Source of the DNA: an uncultured Gammaproteobacteria bacterium
GTDB taxonomy: Bacteria; Patescibacteriota; Patescibacteriia; UBA9570; XYC2-FULL-38-9
Length of the DNA stretch: 64,000 bases
Assembly: GCA_964492735.1 (NCBI GenBank)
Contig: CAZBLE010000002.1
Location: forward strand, 64,135 to 128,134
Direction of reading: 5' to 3'
Shown here: one piece after another, positions 2,886-51,413 of the stretch
Layout: each line of letters opens with the position of its first letter
Position numbering within the stretch: the first letter of the stretch is position 1
Made by a program: the position numbers and the translations under genes
Notes under the pieces: model-generated
What the model was told of the DNA's origin: nothing
The model's input: only the letters and a program-made list of their open reading frames with translations
Databases searched by the model: none

Positions 2886-3254
2886 ATGATAGAAGAAAGT
2901 GTACTAAAAAAACCAGAGGTGTATCCAAAAGGATGGGGTAGAGAATTGTGGATCGCTAATTCTCCTCTGTACTGCGGTAAAATAATGGAATTAAAAAAAG
3001 ATAAACGTTGCAGTATCCACTTTCATGAAGTGAAGGATGAAACATTTTACGTACTATCCGGTGTTGTTCAAATGAATATATATCCCAATGGCTATCCAGG
3101 AGAGCCAAAGGAAATTGTTATGAATCCTGGAGACACTCTCCACATCCCGCAGCAATTAGCGCATCAATTTATCGGCCTTGAGGATAGTACAATTCTTGAG
3201 GTGTCTACTCAACACATTGAAAAAGATAGTTATCGTCTTGTAAAAGGGGATTAG
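2886..3254 (+). CDS. Cupin-domain protein (cupin_2-like small barrel).
   Basis: WGRELWIANSPLYCGKIMEL...HFHEVKDETFYVLSGVV...PGDTLHIPQQLAHQF matches the two-motif cupin signature. I place the start at ATG 2886 (MIEESVLKK) rather than the TTG-type start at 2823 in the ORF track. Confidence 0.6.
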   Translation: MIEESVLKKPEVYPKGWGRELWIANSPLYCGKIMELKKDKRCSIHFHEVKDETFYVLSGVVQMNIYPNGYPGEPKEIVMNPGDTLHIPQQLAHQFIGLEDSTILEVSTQHIEKDSYRLVKGD

Positions 3255-3287
3255 AGAAACTATAGAGACCGGTGTCACCCGCCATAA

Positions 3288-3313
3288 TAAAAAGGCCTAC
3301 TACGGGTCTTTTT
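3288..3313 (+). terminator. Rho-independent terminator after the cupin gene; a near-copy of the hairpin at 2786-2815.
   Basis: AAAAAGGCCTACTACGGGTCTTTTTATT differs from the 2791-2815 hairpin by 2 nt. Confidence 0.65.
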
Positions 3314-3348
3314 ATTATGTTTATCCACCCCTTACATAAACATATTTA

Positions 3349-3377
3349 TTGACAGGTTTTTTTCACAAGAGTAGTAT
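3349..3377 (+). promoter_or_regulatory. Sigma70-like promoter of the first trkH paralog.
   Basis: TTGACA at 3349-3354, a 17-nt spacer, then TAGTAT at 3372-3377. Confidence 0.5.
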
Positions 3378-3420
3378 GGTCCGTGGCTTCTTGAAAATAT
3401 ATACACTAATCGTTTTACGA

Positions 3421-3459
3421 CAACTTGAGAATAAGGTTCCTCAAGTTGAATGATTTTTT
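3421..3459 (+). promoter_or_regulatory. Conserved leader hairpin (CAACTTGAG-N10-CTCAAGTTG) followed by a T6 run. Candidate attenuator or cis-regulatory RNA in the trkH-1 5' leader.
   Basis: A perfect 9-bp inverted repeat at 3421-3429 and 3440-3448, then AATGATTTTTTG. It sits about +37 from the predicted transcription start. The same CAACTTGAGAA...CAAGTTGA motif recurs in the trkH-2 leader at 5941-5970. Confidence 0.4.
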
Positions 3460-3593
3460 GTTGATTGTAGCAATAAAAATCTTACGACATTTCTGGTTCA
3501 GGTATTTTAATCTTGAACAAGAGGCGTCGTAATTGAACGATGGTATACTATTTTTCATAAAAAGTCCCTCACTTAATTTTAACGTGCCTTTTT

Positions 3594-5315
3594 ATGTTGA
3601 AACAACGGTTTCACTATCTATATTCAGCGCTCATTCCAGCGCTTCAAATTCAAATTGTTTTATTTTGTGGCTTTCTTTTAAGTCTCGGTGTGAGTATTTT
3701 TTATCAAGTAGTGAATGACCCTCGTTATCCAGTAGAGCGCCCCGCGTTATTATTTTATGGGATTATTATTAGTGGTGCCTGTGTATTATTGGGTCATTTA
3801 CTTAGTAAATACACTATGTATGACCATGAGCTTGATTTAGGGCATGGTGCGTGGGTCGTCTTTTTTACATGGATGATTGCGTGTGCGACTTCTGGCTTTG
3901 TGTTTATGCAGGCAGGATTTCCAGTGCCATCACGCGTTGAAGACTTTGCACTGGCGCGTCGATTTTTTGATGGCTTTTATGAATCAATGTCTGGGTTTAC
4001 AACGACTGGTACAAGTATTTTACCAAGCGTGGAAGCCTTTCCGCGGAGTATTTTATTTTGGCGTTCACTGACGCATTGGATTGGTGGGATGGGGATTGCG
4101 TTTATGGCACTGACCCTTTGGAAGGCAATTACTACTCGACGCTCAGAAGTTATTAATTCAGAAGCAGAGTCACCACATATTATTGCGTTTAAGAATGACC
4201 AAGAATCACGGCAGTCCGGATTTGATTTTTTGAAAACATACAGCTTTTTAAGCGCACTTTGCTTTATTGCGTTGTATCTGTCAGGTCATTTTTTTCGAGA
4301 CGTGCCATATGCACAGTGGTACGATAACCTTTTTGATTCCTTAACGATTACTTTTGGCACAATGGGAACTGGTGGCTTTGGTGTGTATGATTCAAGTATT
4401 GGGTTGCCGATTATAGAAAATGGACAGCTGATTACTGGTGGATTAAGGAATGCTGTTTCAGAATGGATCATTGCGTTTTTCATGGCTTTTGCTGGAATGA
4501 ATTTTGCATTATGGTATTCATTGATTTTTAAGGGCCGATTATTAAACATGCTGAAAAATCGTGAGTTCCAAGTATTTTGGTTATTCATTATTCTCAGCAC
4601 AGCTTCAATTACCTATTTATTGGTTCAATCTGGCATTCATGATTCTACACTTGAGTCATTACGTTTCGCGTTCTTTAATGTCACAAATATTGTTTCAACC
4701 ACTGGTTTTGGTAATGACGATTTCAACCTTTGGCCAGTTGGTGCTCAAGCGATCTTATTCTTGTCATACCTCACAGGCGCAATGGTTGGTTCCACCGGCG
4801 GTGGGTTAAAGTTTATTCGGTTTATCGTCTTGTTTAAATATCTCGGCATGCAAATTAAAAATTTGATCACCGGCTCTCAGAAATCTGGATTTGTTATCGA
4901 TGGTGTACGATACAATGATCGCAGTAGTGCATTGATTATTACGACCGTCACTATTTATTTCATGTTGTTTTTAGGAGGTGCGGTAGTCATTTTGTTGACA
5001 GGCAGTCAGGCGACATTTACAGATGGAACGATCCGCGGTATGGACTTTTTCACAGGATTTAATGCGGCGATTGCCAACCTTGGTAACATCGGGCCATCGA
5101 TTGTCAATGGTATTGCAGGAGCGGGCCCAACTGGGAACTACTCGTCATTTAGTACAGTTGCAAAAGTTGTTATGGCGATTCTGATGTTTATTGGCCGCAT
5201 TGGCGTGTTAACTTGCTTAATGTTGTTTGTGACAAAGCGTGGATTGGAAAATATGAACACTGAAAGAGCAGCAGTTGAATTTGATTCAGATACACCATTA
5301 TTACTCGGACGTTAA
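3594..5315 (+). CDS. trkH: TrkH/KtrB-family cation (K+) transporter, paralog 1.
   Basis: Multi-TM protein carrying the selectivity-filter-like motifs MSGFTTTGTSIL, FGTMGTGGFGVYD, VSTTGFGNDDF and GSTGGGLKFIRF that are characteristic of the Trk/Ktr/HKT superfamily. Confidence 0.8.
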   Translation: MLKQRFHYLYSALIPALQIQIVLFCGFLLSLGVSIFYQVVNDPRYPVERPALLFYGIIISGACVLLGHLLSKYTMYDHELDLGHGAWVVFFTWMIACATSGFVFMQAGFPVPSRVEDFALARRFFDGFYESMSGFTTTGTSILPSVEAFPRSILFWRSLTHWIGGMGIAFMALTLWKAITTRRSEVINSEAESPHIIAFKNDQESRQSGFDFLKTYSFLSALCFIALYLSGHFFRDVPYAQWYDNLFDSLTITFGTMGTGGFGVYDSSIGLPIIENGQLITGGLRNAVSEWIIAFFMAFAGMNFALWYSLIFKGRLLNMLKNREFQVFWLFIILSTASITYLLVQSGIHDSTLESLRFAFFNVTNIVSTTGFGNDDFNLWPVGAQAILFLSYLTGAMVGSTGGGLKFIRFIVLFKYLGMQIKNLITGSQKSGFVIDGVRYNDRSSALIITTVTIYFMLFLGGAVVILLTGSQATFTDGTIRGMDFFTGFNAAIANLGNIGPSIVNGIAGAGPTGNYSSFSTVAKVVMAILMFIGRIGVLTCLMLFVTKRGLENMNTERAAVEFDSDTPLLLGR

Positions 5316-5324
5316 TCTCATTTT

Positions 5325-5837
5325 ATGAATATTCTTTTTATCGGTTTAGTAGGTTCCGGAAAATCTACACTCGGTAGCATGGTCGCAAAAGAGCTTGGGT
5401 ATGCATTTATTGAAACAGACGTTTTGACATTAGATCGGACAGGGTACGCATCTATCAATGATGTCTATAAAGAAAGTGTTTCTTTTTGGGAAGAGACTGA
5501 GATTGAAGTCATGAAAGCGTTAAGTGGACATACAAAACAAGTGCTCGCTTGTGGTGGTGGTGTTGCGGAAAACGATATTAATTTTCAGTTTTTTCGAGAA
5601 AATTCTGAGACAACACACATCATCTATCTGTATTCTGAAGCAGGTGTATTGGCAGAGCGGGTACTGACTGCGCATTCTGAAATGACACTCAAAGAAGTCG
5701 ATGCAGTAACTGCAAAAATGAAAGAGCTGTTTAAAAAGCGTGATTCATTGTATCGATTGCAAGCAACGCATGTGATTGACACAACCAACAAAACGGCCAC
5801 AGACAATGTCCGAGAAATTTTAGATATTGTGGGTTAA
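5325..5837 (+). CDS. P-loop kinase of the shikimate-kinase/gluconokinase-like (AAA_33/SKI) fold.
   Basis: Walker A motif ILFIGLVGSGKSTLG, followed by ETD...ACGGGV and a lid region arranged as in shikimate-kinase-like proteins. The substrate is not assignable. Confidence 0.5.
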   Translation: MNILFIGLVGSGKSTLGSMVAKELGYAFIETDVLTLDRTGYASINDVYKESVSFWEETEIEVMKALSGHTKQVLACGGGVAENDINFQFFRENSETTHIIYLYSEAGVLAERVLTAHSEMTLKEVDAVTAKMKELFKKRDSLYRLQATHVIDTTNKTATDNVREILDIVG

Positions 5838-5867
5838 TGTTATCCACTGTTTCCACTATTCAAAACC

Positions 5868-5895
5868 TTGACCATTTATCACAGAGGCATATAAT
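5868..5895 (+). promoter_or_regulatory. Sigma70-like promoter of the second trkH paralog.
   Basis: TTGACC at 5868-5873, a 16-nt spacer, then TATAAT at 5890-5895. The leader that follows is about 215 nt long. Confidence 0.55.
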
Positions 5896-5940
5896 CATCT
5901 ACGGTTCATTCAATTGACTTTGTAGAGAATTTGCTTGCGG

Positions 5941-5970
5941 CAACTTGAGAAGCCTTATGCTTCCAAGTTG
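5941..5970 (+). promoter_or_regulatory. Second copy of the trkH leader hairpin motif (CAACTTGAGAAG...CTTCCAAGTTG).
   Basis: An imperfect inverted repeat with the same arms as 3421-3448, at about +40 from the predicted transcription start. A TTTTTTGTTG element also recurs further downstream at 6079-6088. Confidence 0.4.
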
Positions 5971-6116
5971 ATTGCTTGAGAAGGAAAAATTCTCACATGT
6001 ATTTCGATGAGTGGTGTGAAGATTTCACGTTGTTCATCGCAAGACATCCATGGTTAATTGTTTTCGTGAGCTGACGCTTTTTTGTTGCGTGTTCATTCAT
6101 GTGAATATTTTTTACT

Positions 6117-7727
6117 ATGTCTAATGTTGTTCGAACATTTTTTGACAAGCTATCATTTTTTACAGCAGCTGAAGCTACCGTTATCACGTTTGTTATTGCT
6201 TCATTAATTGGAGCTGGCGTGCTCTATGGTACTGAACATAATCGCTTGGTGCATGCAAAAAAGCCAATCTTACAAGAGGTGAGTGTTGAGCGTATTCATG
6301 CAACAGATGTTGACGTGCATGTTTCTGGTGAATCAAGCATACAAACACATACCTTCATCCAAGATGTTCAATATGAAGGCGAAACCTTTATTGACATGTG
6401 GTTCACTGCCGTGTCAGCATTGTGTGTCACTGGCCTTACGTCTACTGATTTTTCTGAATTTACACTCGCAGGCCAAATTGTTACGTTGGTGTTGATTCAA
6501 ATGGGTGGTTTGGGAATTATTGTGTTTACATCTTTATTCGCTTTGGCGATTGTTCGTGGACTGTCTGAGGGTGTCTCATTTCGACATTTATTATCTGGTG
6601 TTCTGGACACGGAAGACTATCATGTGTCAACGATGTTAAAGCATGTGTTCATGTACACATTTTTCTTTGAAGGCATTGCAGCAATGATTATGGGCATTCG
6701 ATTGCAATGGTTTAGCGACCCCGTACTATTACAAGGCTTAAATCCATGGTGGTGGTCGCTATTCCATTCTGTGTCTGCGTTTAATAATGCAGGCTTTGGG
6801 TTATTGAATAATAATTTAGTAAACTATGTCACTGATCCTGTGATTAATTTGACTATAGCGACATTGATTATTATCGGCGGGATCGGATATCCAGTCATGA
6901 TTGCGATTCATGCATGGCTTCGTTTAAAGGTTCGTTCTCGTAAAGATGCGACTCAAGCAACGCTTGATGCATCTGTGAGAGAAGTTATGGCATCTCCATT
7001 ACAACTACGCATCGCATTGATTGGTACCCTTCTGCTGTTGATGGTAGGTACAATTATTCCATTATTGGTTGAATGGAATAATCCTGTTATGGAAAGTCAT
7101 TCTATTCCAGAAAAAGTCTTGATTGCCTTTTTTCAAAGTACCTCAACGAGAACCGCTGGGTTTAACACAGTGGACATTGGCGTGCTTGGTGGCGCAACGT
7201 TATTGCTCTATATGATCCTAATGTTTATTGGTGCCAACCCGGCTGGTACGGGTGGTGGTATTAAAATCCCAACAATCGCAGTGCTGTATGGTTTTATGGT
7301 TGATTGGTTTAAAAAACCAGGCAGTCCAGTGACATTGTATCGATTGGTGGTGAGTAAATTTGCTGTTTCACATGCGATTCGATTACTGTTTTTCAGTTTT
7401 GTTTTTATGGGTAGTGTTTCATTTTTGATCATGGTTGCAGAATATCAATTTTTGATCACACCTGATCCAACTTTTAATTTTCTGAAGGTGATGTTTGAAA
7501 TTGTTTCGGCGTTCGGCACGGTTGGTTTATCAATGGGGTTTACTGGCAGCGTGACAAGTTTTGCTGCTGTTTTGACACCTTTTTCAAAAGTGATGTTAAT
7601 TTTGACAATGCTGTTTGGTCGGATTGGCCCACTAACCATTTTGGCGGCGTTGCCGTGGAAGCGAAAATACTTAAATCATCCACCAACGGGTGATCATGCA
7701 GATGCTCAGAAGATCCAGATTGGATAA
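6117..7727 (+). CDS. trkH: TrkH/KtrB-family cation (K+) transporter, paralog 2.
   Basis: ALCVTGLTSTDF, NNAGFGL, GGIGYPV and GTGGGIKIPT motifs. The C-terminus ends ...QKIQIG. Confidence 0.85.
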   Translation: MSNVVRTFFDKLSFFTAAEATVITFVIASLIGAGVLYGTEHNRLVHAKKPILQEVSVERIHATDVDVHVSGESSIQTHTFIQDVQYEGETFIDMWFTAVSALCVTGLTSTDFSEFTLAGQIVTLVLIQMGGLGIIVFTSLFALAIVRGLSEGVSFRHLLSGVLDTEDYHVSTMLKHVFMYTFFFEGIAAMIMGIRLQWFSDPVLLQGLNPWWWSLFHSVSAFNNAGFGLLNNNLVNYVTDPVINLTIATLIIIGGIGYPVMIAIHAWLRLKVRSRKDATQATLDASVREVMASPLQLRIALIGTLLLLMVGTIIPLLVEWNNPVMESHSIPEKVLIAFFQSTSTRTAGFNTVDIGVLGGATLLLYMILMFIGANPAGTGGGIKIPTIAVLYGFMVDWFKKPGSPVTLYRLVVSKFAVSHAIRLLFFSFVFMGSVSFLIMVAEYQFLITPDPTFNFLKVMFEIVSAFGTVGLSMGFTGSVTSFAAVLTPFSKVMLILTMLFGRIGPLTILAALPWKRKYLNHPPTGDHADAQKIQIG

Positions 7728-7895
7728 TTAAGAAATTGTGGTATCCCAGTAAGTTTTGTGTTGCCCGATTTGCGATGAACAGGAATGAGAGGAGGGGTCT
7801 TATTTATTGCCAATCGGACAACGTGCACATTCTTAATCGAATGAATCGTTGTTTGTTGCAAAAATACAGCACCACTATTCTCGTTGGAGAATCAC

Positions 7896-9392
7896 ATGAT
7901 TCAAAAGATGGATAAGGCGAGGTCTTGGTTTGCGGAGTGCTTTAAGCAGGTTAATTGGATGGATTGGAACATCCTCAACGTGCTAACCTTCGTCGTCGGC
8001 ACACTCTTCTTCGGGACGTTGCTGACGGTCATTGAAGGCCTGTCCATCACGGATGGAGTCTTCATGGTCACTTCGGCTCTGTGCGTCACGGGGCTCTCGA
8101 GCGTCGACTTCTCGCAGTTCACTCCGGCCGGTCAGATTCTCATTGCCCTCTGCATCCAGATGGGTGGGTTGGGAATCGTCACGTTTACTTTGCTGGCGGG
8201 CAGCTACATCGTGACTGGTTTGTCAAAGCGTGAGTCTGTTGCAGCGCTGCTGACCAGCGCTTTTGAAACGGACGACCACAAGTCTGCGCGGTACATGCTC
8301 TTCAGCGTGATCCTGCGGTATACGCTGCTTTTTGAAGGCGGCGGAACCCTGATCATGGGAGCATGGCTCCAGTGGGTCAACACCACAACCTTGTCCCCGG
8401 GCCAAAATCCGTGGACCTGGGCGTTTTTCCATTCCATTTCCGCGTTCAACAACGCAGGGTTTGGCATGGAAAGCGACAACCTGATGAAGTTCGCAGGAGA
8501 CCCGGTTATCAACGGTGTCATTGGCGGGCTGATTATCGCTGGAGGAATCGGCTACACTGTCATCCTCGCAGCTCACGTCTGGGTCCTGCGCCGTCTCGGA
8601 AACGGTGATAACTATCAGCAGCTGTTCGAGAAGCTGGTAGCTTCGCCAGTGCAGATCATCATCGCCCGGCGTGGCACGGTCCTGCTCCTTGCCGTTGGAA
8701 CTTTTGTGCCTCTCGTCATCGAGTGGAACAATCCGATGTTCAAGGACTTCAACACGTTCAGCATGCTGCTAGCAACCTGGTTCAACACCGGCGTGAGCCC
8801 GCGAACGGCAGGCTTCAACACCATTGATTTCAGCCAGTTGCATCCAACGACGCTTTGGCTAACCATTGCGTTGATGTTCATCGGCGCAAACCCTGGCGGC
8901 ACTGCGGGCGGGATCAAGATCCCGACCATGTACGTGCTGTGGGGCTACCTGCGCAACTGGCACCGTGAGCCTGGTGCGCACGTCATCGTTGCACATCACA
9001 TGGTGAGCGGGCGCACGGCCAAAAACGCCATCAACCTTTTCTTCTTCAGCGTCATTTGGGTTGGTATCGCAACCTTCCTGGTGACGGGCGCAGAAGAGTG
9101 GCGGATGGCTGAGGATCCGCGGATCAATCCGCTGGCGCTGCAATTTGAGGTCGTCAGCGCCTTCGGAACAGTTGGACTCAGCTTGGGACACCCGAGCGTC
9201 CCGTACTCGCTCTCTGGTGTGCTGTCCACCTTCAGCAAGTGGGTCATTATTCTCACCATGCTGATCGGTCGCCTCGGTCCGTTGACGTGGCTCGGGCTCT
9301 GGCCGTGGCCGCACAATGAGACAGCAGAGGGTGAAGATGCAGATCTCGATCCCGAAGCTCCTCGTGAGCCGGAGAAGCTGCAGATCGGCTGA
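7896..9392 (+). CDS. trkH: TrkH/KtrB-family cation (K+) transporter, paralog 3. It is GC-rich and probably a xenolog.
   Basis: About 50% identical to paralog 2 (ALCVTGLSSVDF, NNAGFGM, GGIGYTV, TAGGIKIPT), and it shares the C-terminal ...EKLQIG. The coding GC is visibly ~60%, against ~40% in the flanks. ATG 7896 is preceded by GGAGA. The ORF-track start at 7884 is a TTG. Confidence 0.85.
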   Translation: MIQKMDKARSWFAECFKQVNWMDWNILNVLTFVVGTLFFGTLLTVIEGLSITDGVFMVTSALCVTGLSSVDFSQFTPAGQILIALCIQMGGLGIVTFTLLAGSYIVTGLSKRESVAALLTSAFETDDHKSARYMLFSVILRYTLLFEGGGTLIMGAWLQWVNTTTLSPGQNPWTWAFFHSISAFNNAGFGMESDNLMKFAGDPVINGVIGGLIIAGGIGYTVILAAHVWVLRRLGNGDNYQQLFEKLVASPVQIIIARRGTVLLLAVGTFVPLVIEWNNPMFKDFNTFSMLLATWFNTGVSPRTAGFNTIDFSQLHPTTLWLTIALMFIGANPGGTAGGIKIPTMYVLWGYLRNWHREPGAHVIVAHHMVSGRTAKNAINLFFFSVIWVGIATFLVTGAEEWRMAEDPRINPLALQFEVVSAFGTVGLSLGHPSVPYSLSGVLSTFSKWVIILTMLIGRLGPLTWLGLWPWPHNETAEGEDADLDPEAPREPEKLQIG

Positions 9393-30365: not shown

Positions 30366-31160
30366 TTATTTTAGCAAGTTATCAAGTGTTGATTTCACTT
30401 GTGCAACTGGAAGTGCTCCTGGGATACTACCAACGATTGTTCCTTTCTTGTCAACAATGACAGAGAATGGAGTGCCGGTTGCGCCAAGACTTTGTGCCAA
30501 TGCTGCGTCTGCATCAACAGTACTTTCTGTTTTTTTGTTGTTTACGCAATCTGCAAATTTATCTTTATTCAAACCAAGTTTTTCTGCTGCTGCGATATGT
30601 TGATCCGCAGTGAGGTTTGTTGCTTGATTTGTGAAATGGTCATCAATAAATTCCCAGAATTTTCCTTGTTCAGCTGCACATTCAGATGCGATTGCCGCTC
30701 CTTGTGCTCCTGGATGAATACTGAGAGGGAAGTGCATGAATGCAACGCCAACTTTTCCGTCGTAGTCTTTAATGACTTGTTCAACAGTTGGGTGGAATTG
30801 TTTACAGAATGGGCAATCAAGGTCAGAGAACTCAATCAATGTTAAGTCACCTTTTCCAGTAATGTTGCGTACTTTTTTCATATCAACACTACCAGTCACA
30901 GTTGTGCCTGCCGCTGCGTTTGTGTTTGCATTCGCATTGGCTTTCACAGTTGTGCCTGTTCCTGCTGCTGTTCCGCCGCCGATTTCAGCGCCGCTAAGCA
31001 ATAAGTAGAGCATGAGTGCAAACCCAATGATTGCGATAACTGCTGTTGCTGAAACGATACCAGCCCAAAACGCAAATTTTGGAGGCATAGCGTCAAAGAG
31101 GCCTTGTTTTTTTGTTGAGGACACTTCTGGTGTACTCATTAATGGTTTTTGTTCTTCCAT
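30366..31160 (-). CDS. DsbA-family thiol:disulfide oxidoreductase with an N-terminal TM anchor.
   Basis: A CPFC active site (DLDCPFCKQFHP), a thioredoxin fold and the cis-Pro region. It has an N-terminal TM helix and an Ala/Gly/Thr/Asn-rich linker. Confidence 0.75.
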   Translation of the reverse strand: MEEQKPLMSTPEVSSTKKQGLFDAMPPKFAFWAGIVSATAVIAIIGFALMLYLLLSGAEIGGGTAAGTGTTVKANANANTNAAAGTTVTGSVDMKKVRNITGKGDLTLIEFSDLDCPFCKQFHPTVEQVIKDYDGKVGVAFMHFPLSIHPGAQGAAIASECAAEQGKFWEFIDDHFTNQATNLTADQHIAAAEKLGLNKDKFADCVNNKKTESTVDADAALAQSLGATGTPFSVIVDKKGTIVGSIPGALPVAQVKSTLDNLLK

Positions 31161-51011: not shown

Positions 51012-51413
51012 CCTGGTTTGTTTGCTCCGAAGATTTGTCGATGCGGCGCCATCAACAAATTTTGGCAACAAAAAAACCGGGCACAGCCGGAATATCAAAA
51101 ATATTCACATACGCTGTTTCCACTCCACGAGAAACGTCAGAAAAATCTTTGAACTGGACCTGGCTTATTCGCTCTTCCAGAGAAGGCGACATGACAGTTG
51201 CGGGTCAGCGCTGGGAATCACACCCAGACTTCCGTTGCAAAGAAGGTGACAAACTTCGAACAAAGAACGATAGTACAAGCACTATAACATAGTTTTTCAA
51301 TTACTACATCTAGTGTTATCCACAGAGAATAGGCACTATAGAGCGGATTTATTAATGAACGCCATTTTTTAGCAAAAAAATATGAAGAAGGGAATATGGT
51401 CATTGCTCCACTG

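What the first reader, a model, noticed from the sequence alone, without database searches (positions are those of the whole stretch)
3421..3459. A conserved hairpin motif in the 5' leaders of two trkH paralogs: a candidate cis-regulatory RNA or attenuator.
Both long leaders (~210-215 nt) carry the same element at about +37 to +40 from the predicted transcription start. The first reads CAACTTGAGAA-N-CTCAAGTTGAATG (3421-3452, perfect 9-bp stem, followed by TTTTTT). The second reads CAACTTGAGAAG-N-CTTCCAAGTTGATTG (5941-5974). A TTTTTTGTTG decamer also recurs (3454-3463 and 6079-6088). A stem-loop conserved between paralogs and followed by a U-run looks like a transcription attenuator or riboswitch-like switch controlling K+ transporter expression. 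It does not match the ydaO/c-di-AMP riboswitch that commonly controls ktr/kdp genes, so it may be a different element.
Basis: seen in the sequence. Interest (0 to 1): 0.6.

Follow-up and report, generated by a model that had tools for sequence, protein, structure and literature searches.

The report
Structured leader RNA before potassium transporters
The shared hairpin is real, but it is one arm of a larger, previously undescribed folded leader RNA placed in front of potassium-uptake genes in a small group of ultra-small (Patescibacteria-like) bacteria; it is probably a regulatory RNA, not a simple hairpin-plus-U-run terminator.

Summary
CAACTTG-N-CAAGTTG occurs exactly twice in 64 kb (0.02 expected), at about +37/+40 of two predicted promoters upstream of two distant TrkH paralogs.

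The hairpin (H1) is only part of the feature. It is the best-conserved arm of a 124-138 nt element with three consecutive hairpins (H1, H2, H3), closed by a variable outer helix in three of five predicted folds.

The element recurs upstream of TrkH-1 orthologs in three related metagenomic lineages (95, 77 and 54% protein identity):
- Stems covary.
- Each copy folds far better than shuffles (z -3.5 to -8.5).
- G-U pairs favour the sense strand.
- A covariance model built without window copy 2 or L012 finds both full-length. It finds nothing in 94 other TrkH loci.

Rfam has no match, including ydaO and the Na+, Li+, Mg2+ and Mn2+ classes.

The attenuator reading is poorly supported. The T-run is the 5' arm of H2 and is absent in three of five copies. 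The TTTTTTGTTG decamer is not leader-specific.

An H1-like hairpin (CGR-ACAAC...GTTGT-TTG) also sits inside a second conserved leader upstream of TrkH-3 and Kup.

Verdict: a new, narrowly distributed candidate cis-regulatory leader RNA. Its effector and output mechanism are unknown.

The parts
3321..3328 (+). TTATCCAC box about 20 nt upstream of the -35 of promoter 1. It is a DnaA-box-like DNA site and probably not part of the RNA.
   Evidence: There are only 4 copies in the window. The same box sits 261-328 nt upstream of the TrkH start in L008, L009, L014, L096 and L102.
3349..3377 (+). Predicted sigma-70-type promoter of the TrkH-1 leader (TTGACA-17-TAGTAT); inferred TSS near 3384.
   Evidence: The promoter is identical in L008. 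Equivalents in the relatives are TTGACG-16-TATAAT in L009 and, read by eye from the L012 sequence but not flagged by the scan, TTGACG-17-TAGTCT in L012.
3408..3542 (+). Leader RNA element, copy 1 (135 nt): P0 / H1 / H2 / H3.
   Evidence: MFE -42.6 kcal/mol, z = -5.9, with a four-way junction in the MFE structure. CM hits.
3409..3414 (+). P0 5' strand, ATCGTT. It pairs with 3536-3541.
   Evidence: The equivalent is TATCGA/TCGATA in L008 and AAGATG/TATCTT in L009.
3415..3420 (+). Conserved pre-H1 segment TTACGA (consensus RCGR). It is an exact repeat of the H3 5' base and is complementary to the H3 3' base.
   Evidence: Alt-B table.
3421..3448 (+). H1, the hairpin of the finding. The base CAAC/GTTG is invariant; the upper stem and loop are variable.
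3452..3481 (+). H2 hairpin (GATTTTT...AAAAATC plus an inner stem).
3483..3531 (+). H3, a long imperfect hairpin with the conserved base TACGAC/GTCGTA.
   Evidence: There are compensatory changes against L008: C:G to T:A and G:C to T:A.
3536..3541 (+). P0 3' strand, AACGAT.
3594..5315 (+). TrkH-1 (573 aa), the gene downstream of copy 1. It is followed by aroK (5325-5837).
5840..5847 (+). TTATCCAC box upstream of promoter 2.
5868..5895 (+). Predicted promoter of the TrkH-2 leader (TTGACC-16-TATAAT, 11 of 12); inferred TSS near 5902.
5929..6052 (+). Leader RNA element, copy 2 (124 nt). H1 is 5941-5970. H2 is 5977-5995 (TGAGAA/TTCTCA). H3 is 6005-6039 (CGATGAG.../...TTCATCG). A possible closing helix is CTTG 5934-5937 / CAAG 6040-6043.
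   Evidence: Found full-length by CM R2, which was built without it (22.7 bits, E 5.7e-4). Fold z = -3.5.
6117..7727 (+). TrkH-2 (536 aa), the gene downstream of copy 2.
   Evidence: The 70%-identical ortholog in L012 has a different leader.
7818..7852 (+). H1-like hairpin (ATCGG-ACAACG...CGTTGT-TTG) inside a second, different conserved leader (about 7758-7895) upstream of TrkH-3 (7896-9392).

Best explanation
The reported hairpin (H1) is the most sequence-conserved arm of a 124-138 nt sense-strand leader RNA. The RNA consists of three consecutive hairpins, H1, H2 and H3. In most copies a variable outer helix (P0) can close them into a four-way junction. Together with its promoter it forms a self-contained module placed in front of K+-uptake genes: TrkH-1 in four lineages, and a distant paralog, TrkH-2, in this genome only.

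The invariant parts are the base of H1 (CGR-CAAC...GTTG-ATTG) and the base of H3 (CGA...TCG). Nearly the same H1 base is embedded in a second, architecturally different leader in front of TrkH-3 and Kup. From this I infer that H1 is a recognition hairpin for one trans-acting effector common to the clade's K+ transporter mRNAs, most likely an RNA-binding protein. I further infer that binding shifts the competing CGA/TCG/TTG pairings and thereby changes translation initiation or mRNA stability, not transcription termination at H1.

Shown: the element, its fold, its conservation and covariation, its strand, its gene association, and its absence from Rfam.

Inferred: that it is regulatory, that H1 is the recognition site, and that the output is translational or stability control.
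For: - Non-chance and leader-specific: 2 copies against 0.02 expected. There are no further plus-strand CM hits in the window.
- Orthologous leaders retain the element: L008 (95% aa), L009/L010 (77%) and L012/L013 (54%).
- Independent detection: CM R1, built from the window copy and L008, finds L009 full-length (34.7 bits, E 7e-7). CM R2, built from those three, finds window copy 2 (22.7 bits) and L012 (18.4 bits) full-length.
- Controls: in 80 viral contigs that carry the H1 palindrome plus ATTG by chance, the best score is 13.2 bits. In 94 other TrkH loci only the L012 duplicate is hit.
- Folding: all five copies independently give H1, H2 and H3 in the MFE structure, with z = -5.9, -8.5, -7.0, -3.5 and -6.7.
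- Covariation: on the CM alignment of three sequences, 95.3% of cells are paired and 11 pairs change on both sides (0 of 500 shuffles reach this). With slid partners, 34-50% are paired and 0-5 pairs change on both sides. On the five-sequence hand alignment, 135 of 140 cells are canonical, with 4 anchored covarying pairs in H1 and 3 in H3.
- Strand: the plus strand is 5-16 kcal/mol more stable than the minus strand, with 4-7 G-U pairs per copy.
- Portability: the TrkH-2 ortholog in L012 lacks the element. L009 has no TrkH-2 gene at this position.
- Shared hairpin: CGR-A?-CAAC...GTTG hairpins occur at four loci in the window (five counted matches, two of them overlapping; 1.1 expected). Three of the four are the three TrkH leaders. 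The same hairpin lies in the conserved TrkH-3/Kup leader.
Against: - There are only four lineages plus one paralogous copy, and two of the lineages are close relatives, so statistical power is low.
- P0 and H2 are not positionally anchored, so their 'covariation' is partly a product of hand alignment.
- P0 is not in the MFE of copy 2 or L012.
- No conserved expression platform was found. Start-codon or SD-sequestering helices can be drawn in each leader, but they differ between leaders, and start-region accessibility is no lower than the leader average.
- No candidate binding protein or ligand is identified.
- Leaders of other TrkH-1 relatives at 52-58% identity lack the element. The L096/L102 leaders keep only an H1-like hairpin. 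The RNA therefore evolves fast, and some of its structure could be neutral.
- No expression data are available. The promoter and TSS are predictions.
Confidence: 0.55

Rival explanations
1. Ligand-sensing riboswitch. The P0/H1/H2/H3 four-way junction would be an aptamer for a small effector linked to K+ homeostasis, such as c-di-AMP, K+ itself or another ion or nucleotide. Ligand binding would stabilise P0 and so free or occlude the ribosome-binding region.
For: - The RNA is a multi-helix junction with conserved nucleotides at the junction (RCGA before H1, ATTG after H1, CGA/TCG at the H3 base).
- It is associated only with K+ transporters.
- In L009 the P0 3' strand ATCTT is also part of a helix (ATCTTTGTTA/TAACGAAGGT) that covers the GAAGG Shine-Dalgarno sequence. 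This is an expression-platform-like arrangement.
- It matches no known family, so it would be a new class.
Against: - Loops and most junction lengths vary freely even between 95%-identical strains.
- P0 is not conserved in position and is absent from the MFE in 2 of 5 copies.
- The SD-coupling seen in L009 is not reproduced in the other leaders.
- The same H1 base recurs in a leader with a different architecture. That fits a modular protein site better than a junction pocket.
- The distribution is very narrow.
Confidence: 0.2
2. Transcription attenuator. H1 followed by the U-rich tract would be an intrinsic terminator that is read through under some condition.
For: - In L008, H1 (12 bp, 6 G-C, 4-nt loop) followed by ATTGATTTTT is flagged terminator-like.
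- The sequence 3' of H1 is moderately U-rich in all copies (AATGATTTTTT, ATTGATTTTT, TAACTTTCT, ATTGCTTG, TTGATTGTTTG).
Against: - It is not flagged in the window (either copy), L009 or L012.
- The T-run begins 5 nt after the stem.
- The T-run is base-paired as the 5' arm of H2 (GATTTTT/AAAAATC). In copy 2 and L012 it is replaced by non-U-rich arms that keep the pairing (TGAGAA/TTCTCA, TGTGCGAAC/GTTTGCGCA).
- H1 in the window copy has a 10-nt loop and only 4 G-C pairs.
- No conserved antiterminator alternative to H1 was found by inspection.
- H2, H3 and P0, which lie downstream of the supposed terminator, are conserved. A terminator model does not explain that.
Confidence: 0.08
3. DNA-level palindromic operator. 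The inverted repeat would be bound by a dimeric transcription factor acting as a roadblock downstream of the promoter.
For: - There is a perfect inverted repeat at a similar distance from both promoters.
- A separate conserved DNA box (TTATCCAC) upstream of the promoters suggests that these genes are also under protein control at the DNA level.
Against: - The distance between the conserved half-sites CAAC and GTTG varies from 13 to 25 nt among copies. This is incompatible with a fixed dimer footprint.
- Arms keep complementarity through G-T pairs and compensatory changes, not through sequence (CAACTTG/CAAGTTG becomes CAACGTA/TACGTTG or CAACTTG/CAGGTTG).
- The plus strand folds 5-16 kcal/mol better than the minus strand.
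- H2 and H3 show the same behaviour.
Confidence: 0.05
4. Constitutive structural leader. The stable 5' hairpins would merely protect the mRNA from RNases or set a basal translation level, with no signal-dependent switching.
For: - The structure is very stable and evolves fast in sequence.
- No expression platform was identified.
Against: - Sequence-invariant stem bases (CGRCAAC/GTTG, CGA/TCG) across lineages are not needed for mere stability.
- The same hairpin base recurs specifically in K+ transporter leaders.
- The promoter plus leader module was recruited to a second paralog.
Confidence: 0.12

Closest known systems
ydaO / c-di-AMP riboswitch (Rfam RF00379), the leader RNA that controls ktr, kimA and kdp K+ transporter genes in Firmicutes and Actinobacteria
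   Same: It is a long structured 5' leader in front of K+ uptake genes, a multi-helix junction, and present in several copies per genome in front of different transporters.
   Different: There is no Rfam match at the gathering threshold or at E <= 10. The element has three simple hairpins plus a variable closing helix, not the pseudo-two-fold ydaO fold (fold description from my own knowledge). It has far fewer conserved nucleotides and is confined to a few Patescibacteria-like MAG lineages.
Protein-binding leader hairpins (for example RAT/LicT-SacY, PyrR sites, ribosomal-protein leaders)
   Same: The hairpin has a sequence-conserved lower stem and flanks while its upper stem and loop drift. 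It is reused in front of several functionally related genes.
   Different: No overlapping terminator is present, unlike RAT or PyrR sites. No cognate protein is known. The comparison is by analogy only and rests on my own knowledge.
Metal-ion riboswitches for cation transporters: Na+ (DUF1646 motif, PMC9337991), Li+ (nhaA-I, PMC9646797), Mg2+ M-box, Mn2+ yybP-ykoY
   Same: These are cis-regulatory leaders in front of cation transporters that were discovered as orphan motifs by comparative genomics.
   Different: None of these Rfam models matches. No K+-selective riboswitch class is known to me, and no ligand evidence exists here.
Rho-independent attenuators
   Same: A hairpin followed by a U-rich stretch early in a leader, seen in the window copy 1 / L008 lineage.
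   Different: The U-tract is neither adjacent to the stem nor conserved, and it is paired within H2. Downstream hairpins are conserved.

Membership tests
ydaO / c-di-AMP riboswitch | Match to the Rfam covariance model RF00379 at or near the gathering score. | tested here: not met
   cmscan of the whole window at gathering threshold gives only 4 tRNAs. cmscan of 3250-8000 at E <= 10 gives no ydaO hit. The relatives L009, L012, L014 and L096 at E <= 1 give none.
Other cation or second-messenger riboswitch classes in Rfam 15 (Na+ DUF1646, Li+ nhaA-I, M-box, yybP-ykoY, NiCo and others) | Match to any of the family models. | tested here: not met
   The only hits are chance-level matches to eukaryotic snoRNA and lncRNA models, far below their gathering scores.
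Riboswitch (generic) | A conserved secondary structure supported by covariation. | tested here: met
Riboswitch (generic) | Highly conserved unpaired nucleotides forming a ligand pocket. | tested here: inconclusive
   RCGA before H1, ATTG after H1 and CGA/TCG at the H3 base are conserved. Each can also be drawn as paired, and there are only five sequences.
Riboswitch (generic) | An expression platform (terminator or RBS-sequestering helix) mutually exclusive with the aptamer. | tested here: inconclusive
   An arrangement of this kind is seen in L009 only (P0 3' strand shared with an anti-SD helix). It is not conserved in the other four leaders.
Riboswitch (generic) | Direct, selective ligand binding. 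| not testable with these tools
   This needs in-line probing or ITC.
Intrinsic terminator / attenuator | A G+C-rich stem, a short loop and a U-tract starting within 0-2 nt of the stem. | tested here: not met
   The scan flags H1 only in L008. It does not flag the window copies, L009 or L012. In the window the T-run starts 5 nt after the stem, and the loop is 10 nt.
Intrinsic terminator / attenuator | A conserved alternative (antiterminator) pairing that competes with the terminator stem. | tested here: not met
   Inspection of the 5' leader against the H1 arms in five leaders (sequences) gives only 3-5 bp matches that are not conserved.
Palindromic transcription-factor operator | Fixed spacing and sequence conservation of the half-sites on double-stranded DNA. 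| tested here: not met
   The spacing between CAAC and GTTG is 13-25 nt. Changes are compensatory or G-T. Folding energy is strand-asymmetric.
Dispersed repeat (REP/MITE-like) | Many copies, including in non-leader contexts. | tested here: not met
   There are two copies in 64 kb, both in leaders. There are none in 94 other TrkH loci.
Leader peptide / small ORF | A conserved reading frame. | tested here: not met
   Only mechanical TTG or ATG ORFs of 20-61 aa are present, and they are unrelated between the two leaders. One-nucleotide indels separate the window copy from L008.

The most novel reading that the evidence does not exclude
The clade uses an RNA-based K+-homeostasis regulon. Two new leader RNAs would share one recognition hairpin (CGR-CAAC...GUUG-UUG): the 124-138 nt H1-H2-H3 junction described here, and a roughly 300-nt conserved leader before TrkH-3 and Kup. 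At least one of them would be a new riboswitch class that senses K+ status directly, through K+ itself or a nucleotide messenger such as c-di-AMP, in organisms where no such regulation has been described.
Probability: 0.15. Interest if true: 0.75.

Novelty: new member of a known kind. Interest (0 to 1): 0.45.

Why it matters
My two full-text searches found nothing on K+-transporter leader RNAs in Patescibacteria. The only mention of riboswitches in a 2024 perspective on the group is as a prospective engineering tool (PMC11665869).

Here three tandem TrkH paralogs each carry a long structured leader, and none of the leaders matches any curated RNA family. If the element is regulatory, it gives a first handle on K+ homeostasis control in these reduced genomes. 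It would also add one or two orphan RNA motifs whose gene association (TrkH, Kup) points to a short list of testable effectors: K+, c-di-AMP, or an RNA-binding protein. A K+-responsive RNA would be new.

The limits are also clear. The distribution is narrow, with four lineages in about 5.8 billion searched proteins' worth of contigs. There is no expression or binding evidence.

Tried and rejected
- **Genome-collection scan.** Querying with TrkH-1 gave only relatives at 50% identity or less, and none has the motif.
- **Metagenome scan.** The TrkH-1 family alignment was reduced to generic TrkH peptide patterns. It returned 80 mostly distant TrkH loci with no motif, so the single scan was effectively wasted.
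- **Third protein search.** Querying with the L012 ortholog found no new close relatives.
- **Further contig look-ups.** L011, L098-L101, L103 and L184 gave short or AT-rich leaders without the element. L096 and L102 keep only an H1-like hairpin, CACACAACCC...GGGTTGTGTG.
- **Viral-contig pattern scan.** It returned only chance matches. I used these as a negative control.
- **N-padded alignment.** I tried to push my hand-made five-sequence structural alignment through MAFFT, padding with N, so that the count of structure pairs could score it. MAFFT re-gapped two rows. The five-sequence table was therefore computed in Python, and the tool was run only on the three-sequence CM alignment.
- **Kink-turn reading.** I considered GA before H1, a 3-nt bulge and GA after H1. 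This fits only window copy 1 and L008, so I rejected it.
- **Loop motifs.** I considered a CsrA-type GGA or SD-like AAGG motif in the loops. It is present in most copies but never at the same position, so I did not pursue it.
- **Antiterminator search.** I looked for pairings against the H1 arms and found only 3-5 bp matches that are not conserved.
- **Start-region accessibility.** There is no consistent sequestration signal across the five leaders.
- **Literature.** I found nothing on TrkH leaders or K+-associated RNA motifs in Patescibacteria.

Full report
**Observation.**
- Copy 1 is CAACTTGAG (3421-3429), a 10-nt loop, then CTCAAGTTG (3440-3448). AATGA and TTTTTT (3454-3459) follow.
- Copy 2 is CAACTTG-A-GAAGC, a 5-nt loop, then GCTTC-CAAGTTG (5941-5970). 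ATTG follows.
- The gapped palindrome CAACTTG-N8-24-CAAGTTG occurs exactly twice in the 64-kb window on both strands. The expectation is 0.02, and no shuffle of 100 had two copies.
- Both copies lie about 37-40 nt downstream of the inferred starts of the two best promoter-like matches in the region: 3349-3377 and 5868-5895.
- Both copies lie upstream of ORFs that Pfam assigns to the TrkH family. These ORFs are only distant paralogs of each other, 26% identical over 208 aa.
- A third TrkH paralog follows at 7896-9392. aroK lies between the first two.
- The TTTTTTGTTG decamer is real but occurs five times in the window. It sits at unrelated positions in the two leaders. Its second copy is at 6078-6087, not 6079-6088. 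It is not part of the motif.

**Source organism and relatives.**
- The nearest genome-collection relatives of TrkH-1 are MAGs at 50% identity or less. They are labelled Patescibacteria group, Candidatus Saccharibacteria or Candidatus Peribacteria, and one is labelled Limisphaerales. The window, at 43.5% G+C, is therefore probably from a Patescibacteria/CPR genome.
- A search of 5.8 billion proteins found only two close TrkH-1 orthologs, at 95% and 77% identity.
- Their contigs are L008 and L009/L010. Together with L012/L013 (54% identity, reached through the TrkH-2 ortholog), all retain the hairpin in the TrkH-1 leader.
- Other relatives at 52-58% identity have short or AT-rich leaders without the element.
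- L096 and L102 keep only an H1-like hairpin, CACACAACCC-N-GGGTTGTGTG.

**The hairpin is part of a larger element.** In all five leaders the hairpin (H1) is followed by two more hairpins.
- H2 differs completely in sequence between lineages: GATTTTT/AAAAATC, ACTTTCT/GGAAAGT, TGAGAA/TTCTCA and TGTGCGAAC/GTTTGCGCA.
- H3 is long and has a conserved base, TACGAY.../...RTCGTA, or CGATGAG/TTCATCG in copy 2.
- RNAfold run on each 124-138 nt segment separately gives H1, H2 and H3 in every MFE structure.
- The z-scores against dinucleotide shuffles are -5.9, -8.5, -7.0, -3.5 and -6.7.
- In three of the five, the MFE structure also closes the hairpins with an outer helix, P0, into a four-way junction: ATCGTT/AACGAT, TATCGA/TCGATA and AAGATG/TATCTT.
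- For copy 2 and L012, closing helices can be drawn (CTTG/CAAG, TGTACT/AGTACA) but are not in the MFE.

**Objective tests of shared structure.**
- A covariance model built only from window copy 1 and L008 finds the L009 leader full-length (34.7 bits, E 7e-7).
- A model built from those three finds window copy 2 (5929-6052, 22.7 bits, E 5.7e-4) and the L012 leader (18.4 bits, E 9e-3) full-length. These are the only new plus-strand hits with E below 1 in 125 kb.
- The minus-strand hits are reverse-complement readings of hairpins: H3 at 3472-3552 and H1 at 5941-5970.
- In 80 viral contigs chosen because they carry CAACTTG-N-CAAGTTGATTG by chance, the best score is 13.2 bits.
- In 94 other TrkH loci only the duplicate of L012 is hit.
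- On the model-derived three-sequence alignment, 95.3% of cells are standard pairs and 11 pairs change on both sides. No shuffle of 500 reaches either value.
- When partners are slid by 1-3 columns, 34-50% of cells pair and 0-5 pairs change on both sides.
- In my hand alignment of all five copies, 135 of 140 cells are canonical.
- The positionally anchored helices covary. In H1, TTG/CAA becomes GTA/TAC in L012, and there is a T-G pair in L008. In H3, C:G becomes T:A and A:T becomes G:C. The P0 and H2 columns of that table are alignment-dependent and should be discounted.
- All five copies fold 5-16 kcal/mol better on the plus strand than on the minus strand, and each contains 4-7 G-U pairs. 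The structure therefore belongs to the sense RNA.

**What it is not.**
- Not a known RNA family. The window at gathering threshold yields only four tRNAs. The 3250-8000 region at E <= 10 yields only chance snoRNA and lncRNA matches. The relatives yield nothing. This excludes ydaO and the curated Na+, Li+, Mg2+ and Mn2+ classes at sequence-and-structure level.
- Not a dispersed repeat.
- Not coding.
- Not a fixed-spacing DNA operator. The conserved CAAC and GTTG half-sites are 13-25 nt apart in different copies. Complementarity is maintained by G-T and compensatory changes, not by sequence.
- Poorly supported as a hairpin-plus-U-run terminator:
  - The T-run of copy 1 starts 5 nt after the stem.
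  - It is itself the 5' arm of H2 (GATTTTT paired with AAAAATC).
  - It is replaced by non-U-rich but still paired arms in copy 2 and L012.
  - The terminator scan flags H1 only in L008, not in the window, L009 or L012.
  - The conserved H2, H3 and P0 downstream would be unexplained by a terminator model.

**Clues to function.**
1. The pre-H1 segment (TTACGA, ATTACGA, CATGCGA, CTTGCGG, CTTGCGA) resembles the 5' base of H3. Both are complementary to the 3' base of H3.
   - At the one informative column, the 3' residue (T,T,T,C,C) tracks the pre-H1 residue (A,A,G,G,G) rather than the H3 5' residue (A,A,A,T,T).
   - The same CGA can also pair with the TTG that follows H1 (note 5).
   - The invariant trinucleotides therefore have competing partners, as in RNA switches. 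With five sequences this is only suggestive.
2. The promoter plus leader behaves as a portable module.
   - The 70%-identical TrkH-2 ortholog in L012 has a different, short leader.
   - L009 lacks TrkH-2 altogether.
   - The promoter-proximal part of copy 2 (TATAATCATCTACGGTTCA) resembles the TrkH-1 promoter region of L009.
3. An H1-like hairpin, ATCGR-ACAACG...CGTTGT-TTG, lies in a second leader.
   - That leader has a different architecture and is strongly conserved. It lies in front of TrkH-3 (window 7758-7895, L009) and in front of a Kup transporter in L012.
   - It is about 300 nt long in L009 and L012, with covarying stems. The window copy has an internal deletion of about 180 nt. It has no Rfam match either.
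   - A regex for CGR-A?-CAAC...GTTG hairpins finds four loci in the window (five counted matches, two of them overlapping; 1.1 expected). Three of the four are the three TrkH leaders.

**Mechanism.** I commit to the following.
- The element is a cis-acting leader RNA.
- Its conserved H1 base is a recognition site for one effector shared by the clade's K+-transporter mRNAs. A modular hairpin reused in two unrelated leader architectures fits a protein site somewhat better than a junction pocket.
- The output is at the level of translation or mRNA stability.
- The existence, fold, conservation and gene association are shown. The regulatory role, the effector and the output are inferred.
- I could not find a conserved expression platform. 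Helices covering the SD or start codon can be drawn in each leader. One example is CATAAAAAG/CTTTTTATG in copy 1. Another is ATCTTTGTTA/TAACGAAGGT in L009, which shares ATCTT with P0. These helices differ between leaders, and the computed accessibility of the start region is not distinctive.
- A true ligand-sensing riboswitch remains a live alternative (about 0.2). The attenuator (about 0.08), a constitutive stabilising structure (about 0.12) and a DNA operator (about 0.05) are less likely.

**Comparison, novelty and limits.**
- Functionally the closest analogue is the ydaO/c-di-AMP riboswitch regulon of K+ transporters. Membership was tested and is not met.
- The element is best filed as a new, narrowly distributed member of the general kind 'structured cis-regulatory 5' leader RNA'.
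- Only four lineages and one paralogous copy are available. There are no transcript or binding data. The promoters and start codons are predictions.

Noticed in passing
window 7758-7895; L009 9247-9530; L012 9534-9830 (+) and 1700-1400 (-): A second, different and strongly conserved leader RNA lies upstream of TrkH-3 (window, L009) and of Kup (L012). L012 also carries an orphan copy on its minus strand. The leader is about 300 nt long, has covarying stems and 1-nt indels (so it is non-coding), and the window copy has an internal deletion of about 180 nt. It contains an H1-like hairpin, ATCGR-ACAACG...CGTTGT-TTG. It has no Rfam match and occurs only in the same three lineages. It may be a better riboswitch candidate than the reported element.
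   Followed up: partly
window 3321-3328 and 5840-5847; L008 79; L009 6740; L014 4733; L096 3673; L102 1188: A GTTATCCAC box, resembling a DnaA box, lies 16-29 nt upstream of the -35 of TrkH promoters, always 261-328 nt before the start codon. It is the only plus-strand copy in each relative's locus and one of only 4 copies in the window. It is found in a wider set of lineages than the RNA element and is absent in L012. It is probably a protein-binding DNA site.
   Followed up: partly
window 3594-9392: Three TrkH-family paralogs lie in tandem (573, 536 and 498 aa), with aroK between the first two, and each has its own long leader. TrkH-3 is 94% identical to its L009 ortholog, whereas TrkH-1 is only 77% identical. 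L009 lacks TrkH-2, so TrkH-2 with its promoter and leader looks like an insertion between aroK and the TrkH-3 leader.
   Followed up: partly
L014 4168-4460 and L096 3080-3400: A conserved non-coding stretch of about 300 nt lies upstream of the TrkH promoter in two related contigs. It looks like a structured RNA gene but has no Rfam match at E <= 1.
   Followed up: no
window 30531-30540, 31108-31117, 51066-51075 (-): Three further copies of TTTTTTGTTG lie outside the TrkH leaders (5 in total against 1.1 expected). They are probably T-rich terminator or intergenic sequence. They were not examined.
   Followed up: no
window 51316-51323: A TTATCCACA sequence, a perfect DnaA-box consensus, lies in an apparently intergenic stretch (51059-51413). 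It was not examined further.
   Followed up: no
window 3564-3615 and L008 equivalent: The last 31 nt before the TrkH-1 start codon are identical between the window and L008, although the leader upstream diverges. This stretch can form a local hairpin (TTTTAACGTG / TATGTTGAAA) that includes the AUG.
   Followed up: partly
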